Shown here: in pieces, positions 15,919 through 64,000 of the stretch | Layout of the letters: every line of letters starts with the position of its first letter | Position numbering within the stretch: the stretch's first letter is position 1 | Notes under the pieces: model-generated | What the model saw: only the letters and a program-made list of their open reading frames with translations | The model's database searches: none | Told to the model about the DNA's origin: nothing | Source: a virus | Lineage: Duplodnaviria; Caudoviricetes | DNA: 64,000 nt | Virus record (IMG/VR): IMGVR_UViG_3300002220_000035 | Span: 5,499-69,498 of that record | Direction: 5' to 3' (one strand) | Program-made: the position numbers and the translations under genes

Positions 15919-15931
15919 TTTTTTAAAAACG

Positions 15932-15953
15932 ATGCGAGGGATGGGATTCGAAC
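15932..15953 (-). repeat. att core copy 1 (3' 22 bp of tRNA-Leu)
   Basis: ATGCGAGGGATGGGATTCGAAC, identical at 62075-62096 and 63980-64000. Confidence 0.9.
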
Positions 15954-16017
15954 CCAAGAACTCCTACGAGATTAGGCCCTCAACCTAACGCCTTTGACCT
16001 GGCTTGGCTACCCTCGC
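15933..16017 (-). tRNA. tRNA-Leu (GAG), archaeal, CCA not encoded
   Basis: GCGAGGG/CCCTCGC acceptor stem, TTAGG-TTGAGGG-CCTAA anticodon arm, long variable arm, GGTTCGAATCC T-arm. Confidence 0.95.
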
Positions 16018-16077
16018 ATGGGTAACTGAGGAAATGCACCGCGATGCAGCGACAACCCTTGGATCAAGACCCTCAAC

Positions 16078-16104
16078 ATAGTGCAAAACATAGGCACTAT
16101 ATAT
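16078..16104. promoter_or_regulatory. Inverted repeat overlapping a TATA-like box upstream of int
   Basis: ATAGTGC-N9-GCACTAT running into CTATATAT about 22-30 nt before ATG 16126. Confidence 0.45.
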
Positions 16105-16125
16105 GAGCGAAAACCACTCAGGATC

Positions 16126-17253
16126 ATGGGTGTGCTGGACAAATATCGGAAAATCGACCCGGTTAATAAAAAATATTTTACTGATTATCTGCGGTACCTG
16201 CAGCTGCGGAATATCAAATCCACGACGATCGATACTAAGTTCTGGAAAATTTATGGATTCCTCCTCTGGTCGGAGTTCAGGGATGCAAAGGAGGTCCTGC
16301 CGGAGGACCTGGAGAATTTTTACCTGCACCGCAAGGAAACGAAGAGTCCTGTCACGGCTTACGGGGACCTCCAGGAGCTTGAGATCTTCTTCCGCTGGCT
16401 CCTGCCGGATCGGAAGGTAATCACCTTCAAACCGCAACGGCCCCGCGTGGAGATCTCACCCGAGAAGATCCCGCAGGCCCAGGATATCCGGGATATCCTC
16501 GCAGTATGCCAGACGCAGCGGGACCGTGCCCTGGTTGCAACATACTGGAACTCTGGCGGCCGTCTCAGCGAGCTCCTGGATGCCAATGTTGGAAACGTCC
16601 AGTTCGACCGGTACGGTGCGATTATCTCAGTGGATGGAAAAACAGGTAAACGGCAGATCCGGTTGGTCTCCGCGGTCCCGGACCTGCAACTCTGGCTGAG
16701 CCGGTTCCACCCCTACAAGAACGACCCGAATGCCCCGTTATTCGTTACCTCCCGCGAGAGAGGGTCTGGCAAATACGTCCGGCTGAATGCCAGGACCGTG
16801 CAGAACCTGTTCAAGCGCCTGGGTGTCCGGGCGGGCCTCTCGGGAAAGGGAAAGAAGACGAACCCGCATGCATACCGTCACGGATGCGCCACCAACAGGG
16901 CCAAGGACATGACCGAGGCCGAACTGCGGGAATACTTCGGATGGTCGAAAGGATCCACCATGGCCTCGGTGTACGTGCACCTCTCGGGCCGGGATATCGA
17001 CAACAAGGTCCTCGCGATCGATGGAGTAAAGCTCGAGGAAGACCAGGACCCGGACCCGATGCTGCCCCTGGAGTGCCCGCGCTGCAGCCGCAGGAACGCC
17101 CCGGACGCGATCTTGTGCGACCGCTGCAGCATGGCTCTGACTGATGAGGCTCTAAAATTTATGGATGGTGTCCAGGCCCTTCGAAATGATCCCGAAACTC
17201 TCATCGAGTTTGGCGAGTGGCTGATGAAAAAGAACAAAGCCGGCAAGACCTGA
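16126..17253 (+). CDS. int: Tyrosine integrase with C-terminal zinc ribbon
   Basis: Catalytic set R (GGRLSEL), K (GKTGKR), HxxR (HAYRHG), W (GWS), Y (VYVHL); adjacent to att/tRNA. Confidence 0.95.
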   Translation: MGVLDKYRKIDPVNKKYFTDYLRYLQLRNIKSTTIDTKFWKIYGFLLWSEFRDAKEVLPEDLENFYLHRKETKSPVTAYGDLQELEIFFRWLLPDRKVITFKPQRPRVEISPEKIPQAQDIRDILAVCQTQRDRALVATYWNSGGRLSELLDANVGNVQFDRYGAIISVDGKTGKRQIRLVSAVPDLQLWLSRFHPYKNDPNAPLFVTSRERGSGKYVRLNARTVQNLFKRLGVRAGLSGKGKKTNPHAYRHGCATNRAKDMTEAELREYFGWSKGSTMASVYVHLSGRDIDNKVLAIDGVKLEEDQDPDPMLPLECPRCSRRNAPDAILCDRCSMALTDEALKFMDGVQALRNDPETLIEFGEWLMKKNKAGKT

Positions 17254-58087: not shown

Positions 58088-59622
58088 CGAATGAATCCGG
58101 AAAGCCCACGCTGAGGTTCACTGATTCTTCAGGCAAGGGTATAGCGATGCCACTAAATAAAGTGGTTGCGGGAACTCCTGTAGTACGTTCGACCGATCTT
58201 TCAGGAAAGAGTGTTATTTTTCCAGCTTCGAAAGTTGAGGTTGGCCAGAAAGTTATCCGCCTTACCGATATATCGGGGAAGGGCATCGTAGTGGCAGCGG
58301 ACGGAGGTTCTAATATCCCATTCAGCGATGATGTCGACCCGTGCCGGGCGTTCACGGTGATTGAAGACCCTGATCGCCCGGGCGCGTTTCTTCTGACGTG
58401 GTTACCCGGTCTCAATAACGATGAGGTCGAATTCGACTTCAATTGTGACTTCCGGTATTATCCGAAGTCTCCGAGGTCTGGTGAGAAATTCGCTACGTGG
58501 CCGGTGCAATATGACGAAGAGGGAGAAATGCTGCCCGGCACCGTGACAAGAAGACCCATACGGCTTTTCCAATGGCATTATTTCTCGATATGGGGAAAAC
58601 GGCAGGGGAAGTATTCTAAAATCGCGCTGCACGTGAAGGCGTTCGTCACGATGGCCGGCATCCTCGGAAAACTCAGAATGTGGATATTCGGTTATCAGGG
58701 GAATCTCCTGCCAGAGGGTGACTTCGAGAGGGGAATCGAACAGTTCTCCAGCCAAATCAGCGATATCGGCTCACACTGGACTATACAGGCCGGAGCCGCT
58801 TCCCTTGCAGAGAACATTTCTCACACGGGAAAAAATAGTTTCTATGGCAGGTATGGTTCGGTGTGCGCTAACGGTGGGCGTGAATTCGGCACCATCACGG
58901 TTCTCAAACCCACCATAGCAAGTATCTGGATGTGCATTTTACTCCCGGAAGGTCTAGAAGGAAGCGACGAATTTCAGGATAACCCGTGGCTGATATTCGC
59001 GCGGATTGGTTCAGGTGGTCAGGACGTTGATGACTACGTGAAGCCCTACTACTACGGGCAATGGAAAACCGGATATTGGTTCCGACTCTCGACGGCAATT
59101 CTACCGGTTCCCCCAAATTACCAACGGAGTTATTCTTTCTGGCTCGGTCATACCACTGCATACCCTCCATATGGAATCGGAGGCACAGTCGTCTACATGG
59201 ACGACGCATCGGTGAGATATGCAGAGGACCCCGAATCGTGGATGCTCACCGGGGAGAGCGACGTCCCCCCGAACGAGCTCTATGGTAGCGGGGTGAGGGT
59301 CTACATCAACAAGATCGGCCCCGCCGCAGGGGTCCCGTATGCCAATTACATCATCCACTTCTGGGATCCGGTGGCATATGCGGGATACATTGCCTTTAGA
59401 CTTATCGACCCCGACCATGGAATATTGGAAGTATGGGCGCATCTGACGGGTGAAGAATTGGACGACGATTACGAAGATTACACGAAGGGTTTACCACGGG
59501 AGATATACTTCGGGGATATCCAACTCTGCAATTCCACGAACACCCGGCTTTTCCGGGTTTATGATTATCACGGGTTCCTGCCAATCTCTCTTCTGTGGCC
59601 ACTTGGCGATATTATCGATTAG
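58084..59622 (+). CDS. Putative receptor-binding/tail fibre protein
   Basis: Last structural gene; N-terminal TD.SGK repeats; carbohydrate-binding-like N..P.GDFE motif. Confidence 0.55.
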   Translation: MTNESGKPTLRFTDSSGKGIAMPLNKVVAGTPVVRSTDLSGKSVIFPASKVEVGQKVIRLTDISGKGIVVAADGGSNIPFSDDVDPCRAFTVIEDPDRPGAFLLTWLPGLNNDEVEFDFNCDFRYYPKSPRSGEKFATWPVQYDEEGEMLPGTVTRRPIRLFQWHYFSIWGKRQGKYSKIALHVKAFVTMAGILGKLRMWIFGYQGNLLPEGDFERGIEQFSSQISDIGSHWTIQAGAASLAENISHTGKNSFYGRYGSVCANGGREFGTITVLKPTIASIWMCILLPEGLEGSDEFQDNPWLIFARIGSGGQDVDDYVKPYYYGQWKTGYWFRLSTAILPVPPNYQRSYSFWLGHTTAYPPYGIGGTVVYMDDASVRYAEDPESWMLTGESDVPPNELYGSGVRVYINKIGPAAGVPYANYIIHFWDPVAYAGYIAFRLIDPDHGILEVWAHLTGEELDDDYEDYTKGLPREIYFGDIQLCNSTNTRLFRVYDYHGFLPISLLWPLGDIID

Positions 59623-59630
59623 GAGAAACA

Positions 59631-59645
59631 ATTATCCCCTCAGAA
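59631..59645 (+). promoter_or_regulatory. Second copy of ATTATCCCCTCAGAA
   Basis: Identical to 14870-14884. Confidence 0.5.
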
Positions 59646-59660
59646 TATTATTAGTGGGAT

Positions 59661-60197
59661 ATGCAAAAGTGGCAAGTCGCTGCTCTGATCCTTGTCGGAA
59701 TTGCGATCGTACTTACCTGCGGATGTATGAGCCAGGCGGCACCTCAGCAGGTGACGCCAACGGCAACGGTCATCCAGACCGCAGCCCCCATTGTGACATC
59801 GGTTTCCCCGACCGCGATCATCACGACCCCGCCGATACCAACCACTATAGAAACCACGGAACCAACACCAGTACCGACCACAGACACATCAGCCGGTGCA
59901 CTGGACGCACCTGTGCACCTGAGTTCAAAACTTCCTCCTGAAGGAAAAATCGCCTTCACAACGGTCCGTCCTGGGGAGGTCAAAATCCGTGTGTATTGTC
60001 TGTCCCCCGCAAAGGCCGTATTGACTTCAGCGAGTATGGATCAGGTATTACTGCAGGCAAAGAGCAGCCCAGGATCATCGAAAGAGATAACAATCAACCT
60101 TATCACGCCACAGACATACTGGATCACTTTTTCAGGGTTCAACAAGGCAGATATCGGCACTCAGAAAATGTGGCAACTCGACGTGACCAATGCATAG
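59661..60197 (+). CDS. Archaeal lipoprotein (cargo)
   Basis: LTCGC lipobox and Thr/Pro linker; homolog of 14901-15506. Confidence 0.75.
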   Translation: MQKWQVAALILVGIAIVLTCGCMSQAAPQQVTPTATVIQTAAPIVTSVSPTAIITTPPIPTTIETTEPTPVPTTDTSAGALDAPVHLSSKLPPEGKIAFTTVRPGEVKIRVYCLSPAKAVLTSASMDQVLLQAKSSPGSSKEITINLITPQTYWITFSGFNKADIGTQKMWQLDVTNA

Positions 60198-60208
60198 GAC
60201 AAGAGAAA

Positions 60209-60529
60209 ATGTTCTGTATTCATTGTGGCACGGAGAATCCGAATAATGTTTTATATTGCAGAAATTGCGGTCGCTTTATTCCAAGAAAACAACTTGAAGA
60301 GATCCAAGATGAATATAAAATTAATGTTAGTATTTCCATCATCGTCGGCATTTGTACCGGTATAATATCTGGAATTTTCTCTTCAGCATTCAGTTCCACA
60401 TGGAAACCAGAATTATGGCAAGGTGTATTAATCACTCTATCGGTAATCGTGGCAATTGTTTTACTTATTTGGACCGCATTAAAAACTCTGGAAGACTCAT
60501 TAAAAAGGAGACTTAAACGAAATCTCTAG
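60209..60529 (+). CDS. Zn-ribbon plus two-TM membrane protein
   Basis: MFCIHCGTEN...YCRNCG followed by two hydrophobic helices. Confidence 0.7.
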   Translation: MFCIHCGTENPNNVLYCRNCGRFIPRKQLEEIQDEYKINVSISIIVGICTGIISGIFSSAFSSTWKPELWQGVLITLSVIVAIVLLIWTALKTLEDSLKRRLKRNL

Positions 60530-60576
60530 CTAATCAAATGAAAAAATTAATCGTCTTAAAATATTCTTAGCAACAT

Positions 60577-61854
60577 ATGAAATTTCCTGCATTCTGCGCA
60601 CTTGTAATAATCTTCCTGCTTTTAGTATCGGGATGCAGTTCACCCCCACCGCAATCCTCCACGAATATCGAAAACAACCTGCCGCTTCCGTCTACTCCCA
60701 CAATCACCACTCCTTTGATGACCTCGCAACCGTCAACAGGTACACCCTCCAGCGGGGAGATGACAGTATCTTTCATCGATGTCGGGCAGGGAGATTCCGA
60801 GCTTATCCAGTTCCCTTCGGGGAAAACTATGCTCATCGATGCCGGCCCCACAGATGCCGGATCAACGGTCTCGAACTACCTCAGGAGCCGGGGGATATCC
60901 ACGATCGATATGGTCGTGGCAACACATCCGCATGAGGATCATATCGGAGGGATGTCAACAGTTCTGAATGGATTCACCGTGAAGCAGTTCGTTGATAGTG
61001 GATATCCTCACACGACCAGCACCTACGAGAATATGCTCATTCTTATAGATAAGAAAAACATCCCGTTCCGGACTGTTGCAAAAGGGGATACAATCAGCCT
61101 GGATCCCTCAGTCTCGATTACCGTTCTTAATCCCCCATTATTATTTTCCGACGAGATAAACGAGAACTCAGTAGTTCTTAAAATCGTTTATGGAAAAGTC
61201 ACATTCCTTTTCATGGGTGACGCCAGCAGTATTACAGATCATGCCGACATCCTGAAAGTACCGCACCACGGTAGTAACACCGGCGCATCCTCATTATTAC
61301 AGATAGACCCCGCGGTCAGCATTATCGAGGTTGGTGCAGGGAACTCTTACGGACATCCGACAGCGACAACGCTTCAGCGCCTGCAGCAGACTGGTTCAGG
61401 TATATACCGCACCGACAGGGATGGAACAATCATTGTCACCTCAAATGGTGAAACCTATTCAGCGAGTCAGACGAAAACCGCAGGGACCACCTCCACGACC
61501 GTAATCCCAATAATTGCAAAAGCACAGTATACAACTGTGACGACAACCACGGTCAGCGGAACGACCTCCTGCGATTGTTCATCCAACCGGTATAATTGTG
61601 CAGATTTTGCGTCAAAAACAAAAGCTCAATCGTGTTATGATTATTGTATTAATCAAGGAAAAGGCGATGTTCATGGACTTGATGGAGATAACGATGGTCT
61701 GGCATGTGAAAGTGGGACATCAGGATCATCCTCTACAACGTACAAAACTACTTCGTCAAGTGGGAGCGGGAGTTGTCCCGCCGGTAAATGTTGGGTGAAT
61801 GGTTATTATAGAAAATCCGGAACATATGTAAAGGGTTACTGTCGGAGTTGTTAA
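60577..61854 (+). CDS. ComEC/Rec2-like metallo-beta-lactamase-fold nuclease lipoprotein with Excalibur-like domain
   Basis: FIDVGQGDS, THPHEDHIGG, KVPHHGS, YGHP, YRTD..G; LDGDNDGLACE. Confidence 0.88.
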   Translation: MKFPAFCALVIIFLLLVSGCSSPPPQSSTNIENNLPLPSTPTITTPLMTSQPSTGTPSSGEMTVSFIDVGQGDSELIQFPSGKTMLIDAGPTDAGSTVSNYLRSRGISTIDMVVATHPHEDHIGGMSTVLNGFTVKQFVDSGYPHTTSTYENMLILIDKKNIPFRTVAKGDTISLDPSVSITVLNPPLLFSDEINENSVVLKIVYGKVTFLFMGDASSITDHADILKVPHHGSNTGASSLLQIDPAVSIIEVGAGNSYGHPTATTLQRLQQTGSGIYRTDRDGTIIVTSNGETYSASQTKTAGTTSTTVIPIIAKAQYTTVTTTTVSGTTSCDCSSNRYNCADFASKTKAQSCYDYCINQGKGDVHGLDGDNDGLACESGTSGSSSTTYKTTSSSGSGSCPAGKCWVNGYYRKSGTYVKGYCRSC

Positions 61855-62072
61855 TTTTGAAAGCTACAATTGACCGTATAGAAGGGAATCTTGCAATCCT
61901 GATCACACAGGACGAAAAGCCAATAACATTTAATCTCCCTGTACCGTTCCTGGGAGATGCACGGGAGGGAGATATTGTCGATATCACTATCACCCAAGAT
62001 ACCGGGAGCACGCAGACTACCAGAGAACGTGTATCCTCAATGATTGAGAAACTGAAAAAGAAATCGAACTAA
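61848..62072 (+). CDS. DUF3006-like small protein
   Basis: IDRIEGNLAIL...LP.....EGDIV; usual partner of ComEC-like genes. Confidence 0.75.
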   Translation: MLILKATIDRIEGNLAILITQDEKPITFNLPVPFLGDAREGDIVDITITQDTGSTQTTRERVSSMIEKLKKKSN

Positions 62073-62074
62073 AA

Positions 62075-62096
62075 ATGCGAGGGATGGGATTCGAAC
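62075..62096 (-). repeat. att core copy 2
   Basis: 22-bp identity with the tRNA-Leu 3' end. Confidence 0.9.
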
Positions 62097-62097
62097 G

Positions 62098-62127
62098 ATG
62101 TGGCAGCTCGACGTGACCAACGCCTAA
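62098..62127 (+). pseudogene. 3'-terminal fragment (MWQLDVTNA*) of a homolog of the 59661-60197 lipoprotein gene
   Basis: 26/30 nt identical to 60168-60197; all four differences at third codon positions. Confidence 0.8.
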
Positions 62128-62221
62128 CTAGGCCATGAATGTTATGCGATGATGTAATGTGAATAACTTTTTTGACCGAAACGATTAAGCTCCCCCAATA
62201 CATAACGTCAATCAGAAGTAA

Positions 62222-63199
62222 ATGGAGGCAGTAGAGATGGTTGAAAAAGATGGAGAGTCAAAAAATACGCTTCAAAGAAAATATAAAGCGGACCTAGCGT
62301 ATTTTAAATTCCGTCCAAAAGACTATCCGACACCCGATGAGGCGAGTGGATTGTATGAAGATCATTCCTATAAAGGAATCAATCTTGATACAATTTATTT
62401 TGAAGACTGCATTTCTGGTATGGAAAAACTTCCCGCTGAATGCGTGGATCTTGGAATTGCGGATCCCCCATTCGGGATTGATTTTTCCGGGAAAGGAAGT
62501 GTCTACAATAGAGATCGGGATCTGGTAATTAATTCCTATCAGGAGATAGATGCAGATTATGGGGCATTCACAAAAGATTGGATGACCGCTCTTCAACGTA
62601 TCATGAAACCCCATGCGTCAGCATATGTATTCAGTGGGTGGAATCATCTGGAAGATGTTTTACGGGCTGCCCGATTGGCTGGTCTCAGTACGATCAACCA
62701 TGCCATCTGGAAATATCAGTTTGGGGTATTCACCAAGAAGAAATTCGTCACAAGCCATTATCATGTTCTTCTTCTCGCAAAAAACTCGAATAAATACTAC
62801 TTCAATAAAATGGAGCACTATCCTCTCGACGTTTGGGATATCAAACGGAAATACAAAAAAGGAGAGAAAAAGAATGCTACAACTCTGCCAACTGATGTGA
62901 TACGAAGATGCATTGAGTTCAGTTCAAGACCAGGTGATCTTGTTTTCGATCCCTTCATGGGGATGGCAACTACTGCCGTTGTTGCGAAAGGTGTCTGGCG
63001 CCATTATCTCGGATTTGAACTTAACACCAATTTGGCACCGGTTATCGATGAAAGGATTGATGGCGTTTCATTAGGGCAAGATTATATTACCATAGAAGAT
63101 AGACTAAGAAAAATTGAGGAAGAAGGCCGTACAAAATATAAATCTGCGTACCGGGCGTTTTTGCGAGAATCAGAGGTGAAACAAATTGCCAAGTCCTAA
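62222..63199 (+). CDS. Beta-class N4-C/N6-A DNA methyltransferase
   Basis: IADPPF...VFDPFMGMATT. Confidence 0.92.
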   Translation: MEAVEMVEKDGESKNTLQRKYKADLAYFKFRPKDYPTPDEASGLYEDHSYKGINLDTIYFEDCISGMEKLPAECVDLGIADPPFGIDFSGKGSVYNRDRDLVINSYQEIDADYGAFTKDWMTALQRIMKPHASAYVFSGWNHLEDVLRAARLAGLSTINHAIWKYQFGVFTKKKFVTSHYHVLLLAKNSNKYYFNKMEHYPLDVWDIKRKYKKGEKKNATTLPTDVIRRCIEFSSRPGDLVFDPFMGMATTAVVAKGVWRHYLGFELNTNLAPVIDERIDGVSLGQDYITIEDRLRKIEEEGRTKYKSAYRAFLRESEVKQIAKS

Positions 63200-63941
63200 A
63201 GAAGAAGCAGTCATCATTATTGATGCACTGTTCGATGAAGTCGGAGCCACCGGGGGATACTCCCCCCACGGGGATGTTCCTGGTATCGACGGGCGAGAGG
63301 CCCTTATTGAAATGAAGGAGGCTGGATTTCCCGGGTGGGGTGAAGTTGAATGGGCTGGATATTATCTGAAATTCCTTCTACAGAAAACTTGCAGTGATCA
63401 ATTATCAGGAATGGTTAAACCTCTTGATCTTGAGCATAAACGACATTTTATCAAAGGACAGTTTGTCTGGGATGCCCGATTAAGTTCTGATGAAATGAGT
63501 GCTGTGGCTTTGGGCGCAGTGAACGAATACGCCGATATTATCGAAGCGAATGGGGGTATCGGAGTATTGGTTGCGGATGCAGCAGTAATTAAGGATGATT
63601 CCGGGGATTTCAAGCGATTCCAAAGCGAAATGAAAGGGGAAGTCAGCGATTATGAGATCCGAGCGGAGGTTGAGGGGAAACCCCCACAACCCCGTAAAGA
63701 AGCATTCATGATCCGTAAAGTATATGCCTATTTTTTTACCCTTGCAGATCTCAAAGAAGGTGTGAAAAACCGGTGGGCTAAAGATAATTTCCAGCGCACT
63801 ATGAAAAATTCTAATGACCAGCCACGAGGGGGGAAATATATGATTAAAATTGATTCTGTCCCTCGTAAACATCTCCTATTTGTAAAAAATTTCAATGAAG
63901 ATCTTACTGAATTTAAGAAAGAGTTTCCGGAATTCTCTTAA
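63186..63941 (+). CDS. Putative type II restriction endonuclease
   Basis: Overlaps the MTase by 14 nt; size and EWAGYY...WD.R pattern fit; catalytic motif not clearly canonical. Confidence 0.55.
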   Translation: MPSPKEEAVIIIDALFDEVGATGGYSPHGDVPGIDGREALIEMKEAGFPGWGEVEWAGYYLKFLLQKTCSDQLSGMVKPLDLEHKRHFIKGQFVWDARLSSDEMSAVALGAVNEYADIIEANGGIGVLVADAAVIKDDSGDFKRFQSEMKGEVSDYEIRAEVEGKPPQPRKEAFMIRKVYAYFFTLADLKEGVKNRWAKDNFQRTMKNSNDQPRGGKYMIKIDSVPRKHLLFVKNFNEDLTEFKKEFPEFS

Positions 63942-63979
63942 TCCTTCATTATTTTTGTTTGATCTTTCTGAAAAACAGA

Positions 63980-64000
63980 ATGCGAGGGATGGGATTCGAA
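63980..64000 (-). repeat. att core copy 3 (truncated by the window edge; possibly the 3' end of the host tRNA-Leu)
   Basis: ATGCGAGGGATGGGATTCGAA. Confidence 0.88.

What the first reader, a model, noticed from the sequence alone, without database searches (positions are those of the whole stretch)
62075..64000. R-M cassette left behind by imprecise excision of a third related provirus
Seen: right after att core 2 lie exactly the last 10 codons of a homolog of the provirus 2 lipoprotein gene (26/30 nt identical; differences CAA/CAG, AAT/AAC, GCA/GCC, TAG/TAA are all silent). An MTase, a putative endonuclease and att core 3 follow. The junction falls at the tRNA T-loop end of the core. Inference: this is a diverged sister virus, not a recent duplication. 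It lost everything from att to the lipoprotein gene, perhaps through integrase action at a secondary site, and kept only its R-M cargo. This is a possible route by which proviruses deposit defence genes at a tRNA locus.
Basis: partly seen in the sequence, partly recalled or inferred. Interest (0 to 1): 0.72.

Follow-up and report, generated by a model that had tools for sequence, protein, structure and literature searches.

The report
Restriction-modification relic between viral attachment sites
A 1.9-kb stretch holding an intact DNA methylase/restriction enzyme pair sits between two copies of a tRNA-Leu attachment site beside an archaeal provirus. It starts with the last ten codons of a sister virus's gene, so it is most likely the leftover end of another virus, a known kind of relic that is rarely seen this clearly in archaea.

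Summary
A 22-nt block matching the 3' end of tRNA-Leu(GAG) occurs three times, at 15932, 62075 and 63980. One base after copy 2 lie 30 nt that match the end of the provirus-2 gene 59661-60197 at 26/30. All four differences are silent: chance match about 3e-7 per window, all-silent pattern P about 0.0005-0.002. An intact beta-class MTase follows, then a 251-aa protein. That protein's model has the type II restriction-endonuclease fold, and its relatives lie next to an MTase in most of the roughly 60 loci fetched.

The cassette very probably comes from the att-proximal cargo end of a sister virus. The route is open: deletion, or splitting of that virus by integration into a secondary site, or capture by provirus 2. 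Support for recombination at the T-loop is moderate. The same 22-nt block, cut at the same base, borders an integrase island in another genome, and one relative's gene has a core-like stretch at the matching position.

No related virus with this R-M pair in the slot was found, and the module also occurs in non-viral settings. The contig ends inside copy 3, so the right flank is unknown. This is a new member of a known kind (CIME-like relic, gene capture at tRNA sites).

The parts
15931..16018 (-). Intact tRNA-Leu(GAG). Its last 22 nt (15932-15953) are att core 1. It is followed by the provirus-2 integrase gene at 16081-17253.
   Evidence: ARAGORN. Integrase PF00589, E 7e-16. The tRNA is 88/88 identical to the copy on viral contig L070. 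It differs from a genomic copy (G344:C77) by one compensated pair in the anticodon stem.
59661..60197 (+). Provirus-2 secreted or lipoprotein-like gene ('lipo2', 178 aa). Its last 30 nt (60168-60197) are the counterpart of the relic.
   Evidence: ORF and translation. The only true homologue found is on viral contig L060 (58-62% aa identity, tail KMWAVDVTNA*).
60209..62072 (+). Provirus-2 cargo of 44% GC: a Zn-ribbon membrane protein, an MBL-fold/Excalibur lipoprotein and a DUF3006 protein. It ends 2 nt before core 2.
   Evidence: Pfam, NCBIfam, GC. The same genes are on L060 at 73-89% aa identity.
62075..62096 (.). att core 2: the 22-nt 3' end of tRNA-Leu, cut at the T-loop boundary with no tRNA body after it.
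62098..62127 (+). Relic of the last 9 codons plus the stop codon of a lipo2-type gene from a sister virus.
   Evidence: 26/30 identity to 60168-60197, all differences silent.
62128..62174 (.). 47-nt spacer of unknown origin between the relic and the R-M module.
   Evidence: No significant match in any fetched locus. 8 of 10 nt match the lipo2 region at the same offset after the stop codon, which is not significant.
62175..63941 (+). R-M module of 42% GC: MTase 62222-63199 and endonuclease 63186-63941, overlapping by 14 nt.
   Evidence: About 75% nt identity to L006, L005 and L004 over exactly this span. PF01555 and PADLOC MTase_II. Closest solved MTase is CcrM. The ENase model has pLDDT 89.7, and its top fold matches are type II REases. 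Both genes are full length against their homologues.
63942..63979 (.). 38-nt spacer ending in an A-rich tRNA trailer (AAAAACAGAA).
   Evidence: The last 10 nt are identical to the trailer of the genomic tRNA-Leu(GAG) in G344:C77 and close to those of viral contigs L068 and L070.
63980..64000 (.). att core 3: 21 of the 22 nt, cut off by the end of the contig.

Best explanation
The 1.9-kb unit (62075-64000) is the att-proximal end of a third virus, a sister of provirus 2 (called X here), integrated at the same tRNA-Leu(GAG) site. In this virus group the order is: last shared gene, then variable foreign-GC cargo, then the tRNA-Leu att, then the integrase. X carried, or later received, a type II R-M pair in that cargo slot.

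A recombination event joined the T-loop edge of an att core to a site 30 nt before the stop codon of X's lipo2-type gene. The most likely form of this event is a deletion inside a tandem array. It removed the tRNA body, the integrase and about 45 kb of X. It left core 2, the 10-codon relic, the R-M pair and core 3.

The result is an integrase-less unit flanked by att sites, like a bacterial cis-mobilizable element (CIME). The R-M pair is intact. By inference, it still methylates and protects the host DNA and cuts unmethylated incoming DNA. Also by inference, it survived because losing an R-M pair kills the cell (post-segregational killing), so only deletions that spare it are seen.

Shown: the repeats, the relic, the silent-only divergence, the intact MTase and the REase-fold partner. 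Inferred: that X was a full virus, that the event was a deletion, that an integrase did it, and that the R-M pair is active.
For: Three cores, all in the same orientation. The relic matches at 26/30 with only silent changes. The relic begins one base after the core block.

The block ends at the T-loop, a known crossover sublocation for tRNA-targeting integrases (bioRxiv 10.1101/2020.11.02.365908). The identical 22-nt block, cut at the same base, borders an island carrying an integrase and a D5-type primase in 1 of 401 Methanomicrobiales genomes.

In relative L060, the 23 nt just 5' of the tail match core 2 plus one base at 13/23, including TTCnAAnG at the junction. Only 29 of 26,496 positions in that locus score as high.

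The cargo-slot layout is shared by eight relatives: L060, L063, L065-L068 and L070. The left flank of core 3 carries the tRNA trailer seen in relatives and in G344.

The R-M pair is real and intact: PF01555; REase fold with SwaI Z 9.1, SfiI 8.2, BcnI 7.7 and EcoRV 7.0; an MTase adjacent in most of the ~60 loci, in three gene orders.

The sequence decay to CIME to accretion is documented for ICEs (PMC5704250).
Against: No intact virus X was found, and no related virus has this R-M pair in the slot. The closest R-M relatives (69-79% aa for the ENase) lie on short, 39-40% GC contigs; one is next to a UvrD-type helicase, and others sit in Methanoculleus chromosomes.

provirus 2's own gene shows no core-like site (9/23). 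Part of the 22/40 score against L060 lies outside the core and has no mechanistic meaning.

Relatives' attP carries 58-88 nt of the tRNA, and in L065 the identity block ends at the anticodon loop. So the crossover point of this integrase family is not settled.

The contig ends in core 3 and starts inside provirus 1, so neither outer flank is seen.
Confidence: 0.5

Rival explanations
1. Split provirus, not a deletion. Provirus X is still whole but interrupted. An incoming virus (provirus 2, later joined by provirus 1) integrated into a secondary att-like site inside X's lipo2-type gene. This pushed the tail and the R-M pair about 90 kb away from the rest of X, which would lie left of provirus 1, beyond the contig start.
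For: This route gives exactly the observed right junction: viral cargo end, core up to the T-loop, then the gene tail. It also predicts a complete core 1 plus a viral tRNA body between proviruses 1 and 2, as seen. L060 has a core-like site at the matching position. The G280 case looks like a core fragment joined to non-tRNA DNA.
Against: Primary att sites (full tRNA-Leu copies) were available, so use of a secondary site should be rare. No part of X is seen in the 21 kb of provirus 1 on the contig. The idea cannot be tested on this contig.
Confidence: 0.2
2. Capture rather than deposition. The cassette already travels with provirus 2. Its true outer att is core 3, and core 2 plus the relic are an internal scar of an earlier accretion, in which excision used the outer att sites and took a neighbour's relic along.
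For: The spacing allows it: 46.1 kb plus 1.9 kb is only 4% more DNA. The cargo next to att differs among close relatives, and in L060 more genes follow DUF3006 with no core. Gene capture by accretion is known for ICEs.
Against: Core 1 is preceded by provirus 1 cargo, not by the R-M pair. No viral contig with the tail pattern or this ENase exists in IMG/VR other than L060, which lacks the R-M pair.
Confidence: 0.12
3. The R-M module was never viral cargo. It moved on its own into an already decayed relic (tail plus att) in the chromosome, as mobile R-M units do. This can hold together with either route above.
For: The module has sharp borders (62175-63941) shared with L006, L005 and L004, where the flanks are unrelated and non-viral. 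Relatives also sit in low-GC islets of Methanoculleus, once beside a ParE toxin gene and tRNA-His. No relative virus carries it.
Against: The module fills the slot as other cargo does in relatives. It is only 47 nt from the relic and 38 nt from the trailer and core. A distant homologous ENase-MTase pair does occur in an archaeal head-tail virus.
Confidence: 0.2
4. Artefact or chance: a chimeric assembly at the 22-nt repeat, or a fortuitous 30-nt match.
For: The contig ends in the repeat, so the assembler did have trouble at this sequence.
Against: The chance expectation is 2.6e-7. The relic differs from lipo2 at four bases, so it is not a mis-join within the same gene. A molecule with the core next to the relic must exist whatever lies to its left.
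Confidence: 0.04

Closest known systems
Cis-mobilizable elements (CIMEs) and accretion with ICEs in Streptococcus (ICESt1/ICESt3 family; review PMC5704250, citing Pavlovic 2004 and Bellanger 2011)
   Same: A unit flanked by attL and attR that has lost its integrase and transfer or replication genes through decay of a related element. It lies in tandem with a functional element at the 3' end of a tRNA gene.
   Different: Here the parent is an archaeal head-tail virus, not a conjugative element. Only 1.9 kb with one R-M pair remains. The left att is cut at the T-loop. Mobilisation is untested.
Aberrant prophage excision as in lambda specialised transduction, and defective-prophage relics (from general knowledge, not tested here)
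   Same: Recombination at the wrong site removes most of a prophage and leaves one end in the chromosome.
   Different: The classic lambda events do not depend on Int. Here the break lies at the att core itself, which points to the integrase, but this is not shown.
Gene capture and integrated-element relics at tRNA genes in archaea (She et al. 2001-2004, from memory; thaumarchaeal integrated elements carrying R-M genes, PMC6563490)
   Same: Arrays of elements re-use one tRNA att site. Cryptic elements carry R-M genes.
   Different: Those captures were ascribed to integrase-gene partition or to simple decay. Here a coding relic of the parent virus marks the breakpoint to the base.
Defence hotspots next to att or cos in P2/P4-like prophages, and phage 'morons' (from memory)
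   Same: A fixed slot beside the attachment site holds swappable foreign-GC accessory or defence genes.
   Different: Among the relatives found, the slot holds acyltransferases and secreted proteins. An R-M pair is seen only in this relic.
Type IIP restriction endonucleases of the EcoRV/SwaI/SfiI/BcnI structural group, paired with beta-class MTases such as CcrM
   Same: Fold of the 251-aa protein (Z 7-9). Gene pairing with, and overlap of, a PF01555 MTase.
   Different: No sequence-level match to any Pfam, PADLOC, NCBIfam or PDB entry. The specificity is unknown. The expected Lys of the (D/E)XK motif is Arg or His in the close subfamily.

Membership tests
Type II restriction-modification system | DNA methyltransferase with an AdoMet-dependent N6/N4 catalytic domain | tested here: met
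   PF01555 at E 6.3e-29 over residues 75-272. PADLOC MTase_II at E 8e-50. DPPF motif present in the translation. CcrM is the closest solved chain.
Type II restriction-modification system | Partner protein with a restriction-endonuclease (PD-(D/E)XK) fold | tested here: met
   Model pLDDT 89.7, pTM 0.88. The VIA-align top 13 chains are all type II REases or MutH: SwaI Z 9.1 (rmsd 3.4, 148 aligned), SfiI Z 8.2, BcnI 7.7, EcoRV 7.0. Foldseek's top ~50 are almost all REases, but with weak E-values (3.5e-3 at best).
Type II restriction-modification system | Catalytic acidic and Lys residues in place | tested here: inconclusive
   E55 and D96 are invariant in 39 sequences, and D81 in the close subfamily. 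Position 98 is Lys in distant members but Arg or His in the close ones. Residues were not mapped onto a solved active site.
Type II restriction-modification system | Conserved adjacency of the two genes across lineages | tested here: met
   In most of the ~60 fetched loci that hold an ENase homologue, a PF01555-type MTase lies next to it, in M-R, R-M or divergent order. These include Methanoculleus, a Heimdallarchaeon and a Methanobacteriales virus.
Type II restriction-modification system | Sequence-specific cleavage blocked by the cognate methylation | not testable with these tools
   No specificity could be inferred. No palindrome is strikingly avoided in the proviruses.
CIME-like decayed integrative element | Flanked by direct repeats of the att site of a related functional element | tested here: met
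   Cores at 62075 and 63980, in the same orientation and identical to core 1 beside int2. Core 3 is cut by the contig end.
CIME-like decayed integrative element | No integrase, replication or structural genes of its own | tested here: met
   Only the MTase and ENase ORFs lie between the cores.
CIME-like decayed integrative element | Derived by deletion from a full element of the same family | tested here: inconclusive
   The 10-codon relic of a lipo2-type gene shows viral descent of the left end. No full-length parent was found, and a split-provirus origin is not excluded.
CIME-like decayed integrative element | Excises or moves in cis with a neighbouring element | not testable with these tools
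   This needs reads from the sample or an experiment.
T-loop class tRNA att site of tyrosine integrases | Identity block runs from the T-loop to the 3' end of the tRNA | tested here: met
   The block covers the last G of the 5' T-stem, the T-loop, the 3' T-stem, the 3' acceptor strand, the discriminator and one further base. The same block occurs at G280:C64:21151-21172 beside an integrase island.
T-loop class tRNA att site of tyrosine integrases | Strand exchange mapped to the T-loop for this integrase | not testable with these tools
   Relatives' attP holds 58-88 nt of the tRNA. L065's block ends at the anticodon loop, so another sublocation is possible for part of the family.

The most novel reading that the evidence does not exclude
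The relic is an intermediate in att-site accretion as a cargo-exchange route for archaeal head-tail viruses. Integrase-less cassettes flanked by att sites, left by one virus, are picked up by the next virus that integrates beside them and later excises using the outer att sites. This would explain why the slot next to att differs among close relatives. It would also make R-M and other defence genes shuttle between chromosome and virus without transposases.
Probability: 0.12. Interest if true: 0.6.

Novelty: new member of a known kind. Interest (0 to 1): 0.36.

Why it matters
The breakpoint of a provirus relic can be read here to the base, because a coding remnant of the parent virus survives beside an att core. 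That gives a concrete, testable case of defence genes being parked at a tRNA site in a methanogen, or picked up from one. Integrated elements in methanogens are little studied. The case also brings out an uncharacterised restriction-endonuclease family, with no Pfam, PADLOC or PDB sequence match, that is paired with CcrM-like MTases in archaea, metagenomes and at least one archaeal virus. The underlying principle (decay to an att-flanked relic, tandem accretion) is already established for bacterial ICEs. The value is therefore as an archaeal viral example, not as a new mechanism.

Tried and rejected
The seven other contigs that encode the identical ENase (P0001) could therefore not be read. 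They would have been the best way to see the right flank.
- Searches for an intact parent or any virus with the R-M pair in the slot all came up empty. The ENase profile found nothing in IMG/VR and int2 found nothing. lipo2 and a degenerate tail pattern found only contig L060/L061, which has the provirus-2 cargo and no R-M pair. The exact core found nine viral contigs, none with an R-M pair. The ENase had no plasmid match and only one distant match in GenBank phages.
- In 401 Methanomicrobiales genomes, lipo2 gave only hits to the signal peptide and linker. A DNA search with 59600-64000 gave MTase and MBL relatives but no cassette. G344 and G222 hold no provirus-2 late genes.
- The spacers 62128-62174 and 63942-63969 have no relatives.
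- Palindrome-avoidance analysis to guess the recognition site gave no clear signal.
- Rejected: attP lying inside the sister virus's gene. In that case the rest of the virus, not core 3, would follow the ENase.
- Rejected: chance.
- Rejected: a recent duplication of lipo2's own tail, because of the four differences.
- Not pursued: the idea that the core-like stretch inside the L060 gene is an ancient att scar. The stretch is under protein-level conservation, and lipo2 lacks the similarity.
- Earlier notes of this scan hold no look-alike of the cassette elsewhere.
Full report
SETTING. The window is the last 64 kb of a single 69,498-nt contig that the tools treat as a virus record. The contig, and so the window, ends 21 nt into the third att copy. 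ARAGORN finds an intact tRNA-Leu(GAG) at 15931-16018 on the minus strand. The gene at 16081-17253 is a tyrosine integrase (PF00589, E 7e-16). Left of the tRNA lies the end of provirus 1: a 201-aa and a 132-aa secreted-protein gene. Right of it, provirus 2 runs to 62074. My own evidence places near-identical tRNA-Leu(GAG) genes in two genomes drawn from the order of Methanoculleus palmolei.

- The 22-nt block ATGCGAGGGATGGGATTCGAAC occurs at 15932, 62075 and 63980 and nowhere else on the contig.
- One base after copy 2, positions 62098-62127 match the last 30 nt of ORF 59661-60197 at 26/30.
- Such a match is expected 2.6e-7 times per window. Four random substitutions leave the peptide and the stop codon unchanged in only 0.05-0.16% of simulations.
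- So the two copies diverged mostly while both were working genes. The relic therefore comes from a sister lineage and was truncated late.
- The same tail is conserved in the only true homologue found, on IMG/VR contig L060 (KMWAVDVTNA-stop).
- On the tRNA, the block spans the last base of the 5' T-stem, the T-loop, the 3' T-stem, the acceptor 3' strand, the discriminator and one trailer base. The junction therefore lies at the T-loop boundary, as stated.

THE TWO GENES ARE A REAL, INTACT R-M PAIR.
- ORF 62222-63199 is a beta-class N6/N4 MTase: PF01555 at E 6e-29, PADLOC MTase_II at E 8e-50, DPPF motif, and CcrM as the closest solved chain.
- ORF 63186-63941 overlaps it by 14 nt. It has no Pfam, PADLOC, NCBIfam or PDB sequence match.
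- It belongs to a small family. In most of the roughly 60 fetched loci, members of that family lie beside a PF01555-type MTase, in three different gene orders.
- An AlphaFold model built on 39 sequences (pLDDT 89.7) matches type II restriction enzymes almost exclusively: SwaI Z 9.1, SfiI 8.2, BcnI 7.7, NhoI 7.5, DpnI 7.3, BglI 7.1, EcoRV 7.0. Foldseek gives the same list with weak E-values.
- E55 and D96 are invariant. The Lys expected two residues after D96 is Arg or His in the close subfamily, so catalytic competence is likely but not proven.
- Both proteins are full length against their homologues.

THE CASSETTE SITS IN A CARGO SLOT.
- Viral contigs that share the core are relatives of proviruses 1 and 2. 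They show one layout: tail genes, then one to a few genes of lower GC, then an A-rich trailer, then tRNA-Leu (whole, or 58 nt of it), then the integrase.
- The slot holds an Acyl_transf_3 protein in L065, L067 and L070, an Excalibur lipoprotein in L063, and a lipo1 homologue in L066. In L060 it holds the same Zn-ribbon, MBL/Excalibur and DUF3006 genes as provirus 2.
- The R-M module has 42% GC and provirus-2 cargo 44%, against 56% for the rest of provirus 2.
- The left flank of core 3 ends in AAAAACAGAA. This is identical to the trailer of the genomic tRNA-Leu in G344:C77 and close to those of L068 and L070. The right end of the cassette therefore looks like a genuine viral or att junction.

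WHAT WAS NOT FOUND.
- No relative carries an R-M pair in the slot, and no intact parent exists in the collections searched.
- The module, with sharp borders at 62175 and 63941, is about 75% identical in DNA to three short metagenome contigs of 39-40% GC. There the neighbours are unrelated and non-viral; one is a UvrD-type helicase.
- More distant copies lie in low-GC islets of Methanoculleus chromosomes. One of these is beside a ParE toxin gene and the 3' end of tRNA-His, without an att repeat.
- A distant ENase-MTase pair does occur in a Methanobacteriales head-tail virus.

HOW THE JUNCTION AROSE. Two results point to site-specific recombination in the T-loop rather than a random break.
- First, among 401 genomes, the core followed by a non-tRNA base occurs once, at G280:C64:21151-21172. 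It is the same 22-nt block, cut at the same nucleotide, at the edge of an island with an integrase and a D5-type primase, on a contig without any tRNA.
- Second, in L060 the 23 nt just upstream of the tail match core 2 plus one base at 13/23, with TTCnAAnG abutting the junction. Only 29 of 26,496 positions in that locus score as high.
- Provirus 2's own gene shows nothing (9/23), so this second result is suggestive only.
- T-loop and anticodon-loop crossover sublocations are established for tRNA-targeting integrases. In L065 the identity block ends at the anticodon loop, so the exchange point of this family is not settled.

ROUTES THAT FIT THE DATA.
(a) Deletion within a tandem array, from the T-loop of the att between provirus 2 and X to the site in X's gene.
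(b) Integration of incoming virus(es) into that secondary site. This leaves X split, with its bulk beyond the left end of the contig. It predicts both junctions seen, including the complete core 1 followed by a viral-type tRNA body (about 0.2).
(c) The cassette already belongs to provirus 2, captured by accretion (about 0.12).
Independently of these routes, the R-M module may have entered the relic on its own (about 0.2). Retention of exactly the R-M pair is what one expects if its loss is lethal (post-segregational killing, from general knowledge). This is inference.

COMPARISON WITH WHAT IS KNOWN. [quoted passage not shown] Arrays at re-used att sites and R-M genes in cryptic integrated elements are also described for archaea (PMC6563490). 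The finding is thus a clear archaeal, viral example of a known process, with an unusually legible breakpoint, and not a new kind of system.

LIMITS. One tool (look-up of encoding contigs) was closed. Close copies of the window are withheld from the collections. The contig ends prevent any view of either outer flank. All statements about activity are inference.

Noticed in passing
window 63980-64000 (contig end): The contig stops 21 nt into the 22-nt att block, within one base of where core 2 and the G280 fragment diverge from the tRNA. This may be only an assembly break at a repeat, or it may mark several alternative right flanks in the sample.
   Followed up: partly
window 15931-16018; L070:11596-11682; L086 (G344:C77):15-99: The tRNA-Leu(GAG) next to int2 is 88/88 identical to the copy on an independent viral contig. 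It differs from a genomic copy by a compensated base pair in the anticodon stem (T-A versus C-G). This supports a virus-borne complete tRNA at attP.
   Followed up: partly
L087 (G222:C45):3394-3479 and L086 (G344:C77): Candidate host attB locus. tRNA-Leu(GAG) is flanked on its 5' side by a conserved 166-169-aa gene with no Pfam match. In G222 an LSm-like gene lies on the 3' side, so the site looks unoccupied there.
   Followed up: partly
G280:C64:21151-21172 (L102:9952-9973): An orphan 22-nt tRNA-Leu 3' fragment lies at the edge of an island that encodes an integrase, a second integrase fragment, a D5_N primase-helicase and a TPR protein whose C-terminus resembles provirus 1's 132-aa protein. 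There is no tRNA on the 31-kb contig. This may be a secondary-site integration.
   Followed up: partly
L062:10619-10661 and L068:86-126: A second copy of the 5' half of tRNA-Leu (41-43 nt) lies about 50 nt upstream of the complete tRNA on two viral contigs. This hints at recombination in the anticodon loop in part of this virus group.
   Followed up: no
L003:8000-12000 (Methanoculleus palmolei CP137641.1): An R-M pair of the same family plus a ParE-toxin gene forms a low-GC islet (about 50% against about 63%) abutting the 3' end of tRNA-His, with no detectable att repeat.
   Followed up: partly
L071:4260-6621 (BK063679.1, Caudoviricetes sp. vir323, host Methanobacteriales): A distant homologue of the ENase (24% identity), annotated as hypothetical, lies about 480 nt downstream of a DNA methyltransferase gene in a circular archaeal virus genome.
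   Followed up: partly
window 63186-63941 and alignment A2: The ENase defines an uncharacterised restriction-endonuclease family with no Pfam, PADLOC, NCBIfam or PDB sequence match. E55, W56, W95, D96, G126, K150, G151, S154, Y156 and K171 are invariant in 39 sequences.
   Followed up: partly
L060:12409-13270: In the closest relative of provirus 2, DUF3006 is not followed by an att core. Instead a 175-aa membrane-protein gene follows on the other strand, then an ORF at the contig end that looks like a transposase by eye (not tested).
   Followed up: no
window 60577-61854: The provirus-2 cargo protein is a secreted MBL-fold (ComEC-like) hydrolase with an Excalibur Ca-binding domain. It has weak NCBIfam hits to anti-phage MBL proteins (Avs1a, 6A-MBL) and is paired with DUF3006. 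It may be a nuclease-type accessory or defence gene.
   Followed up: no
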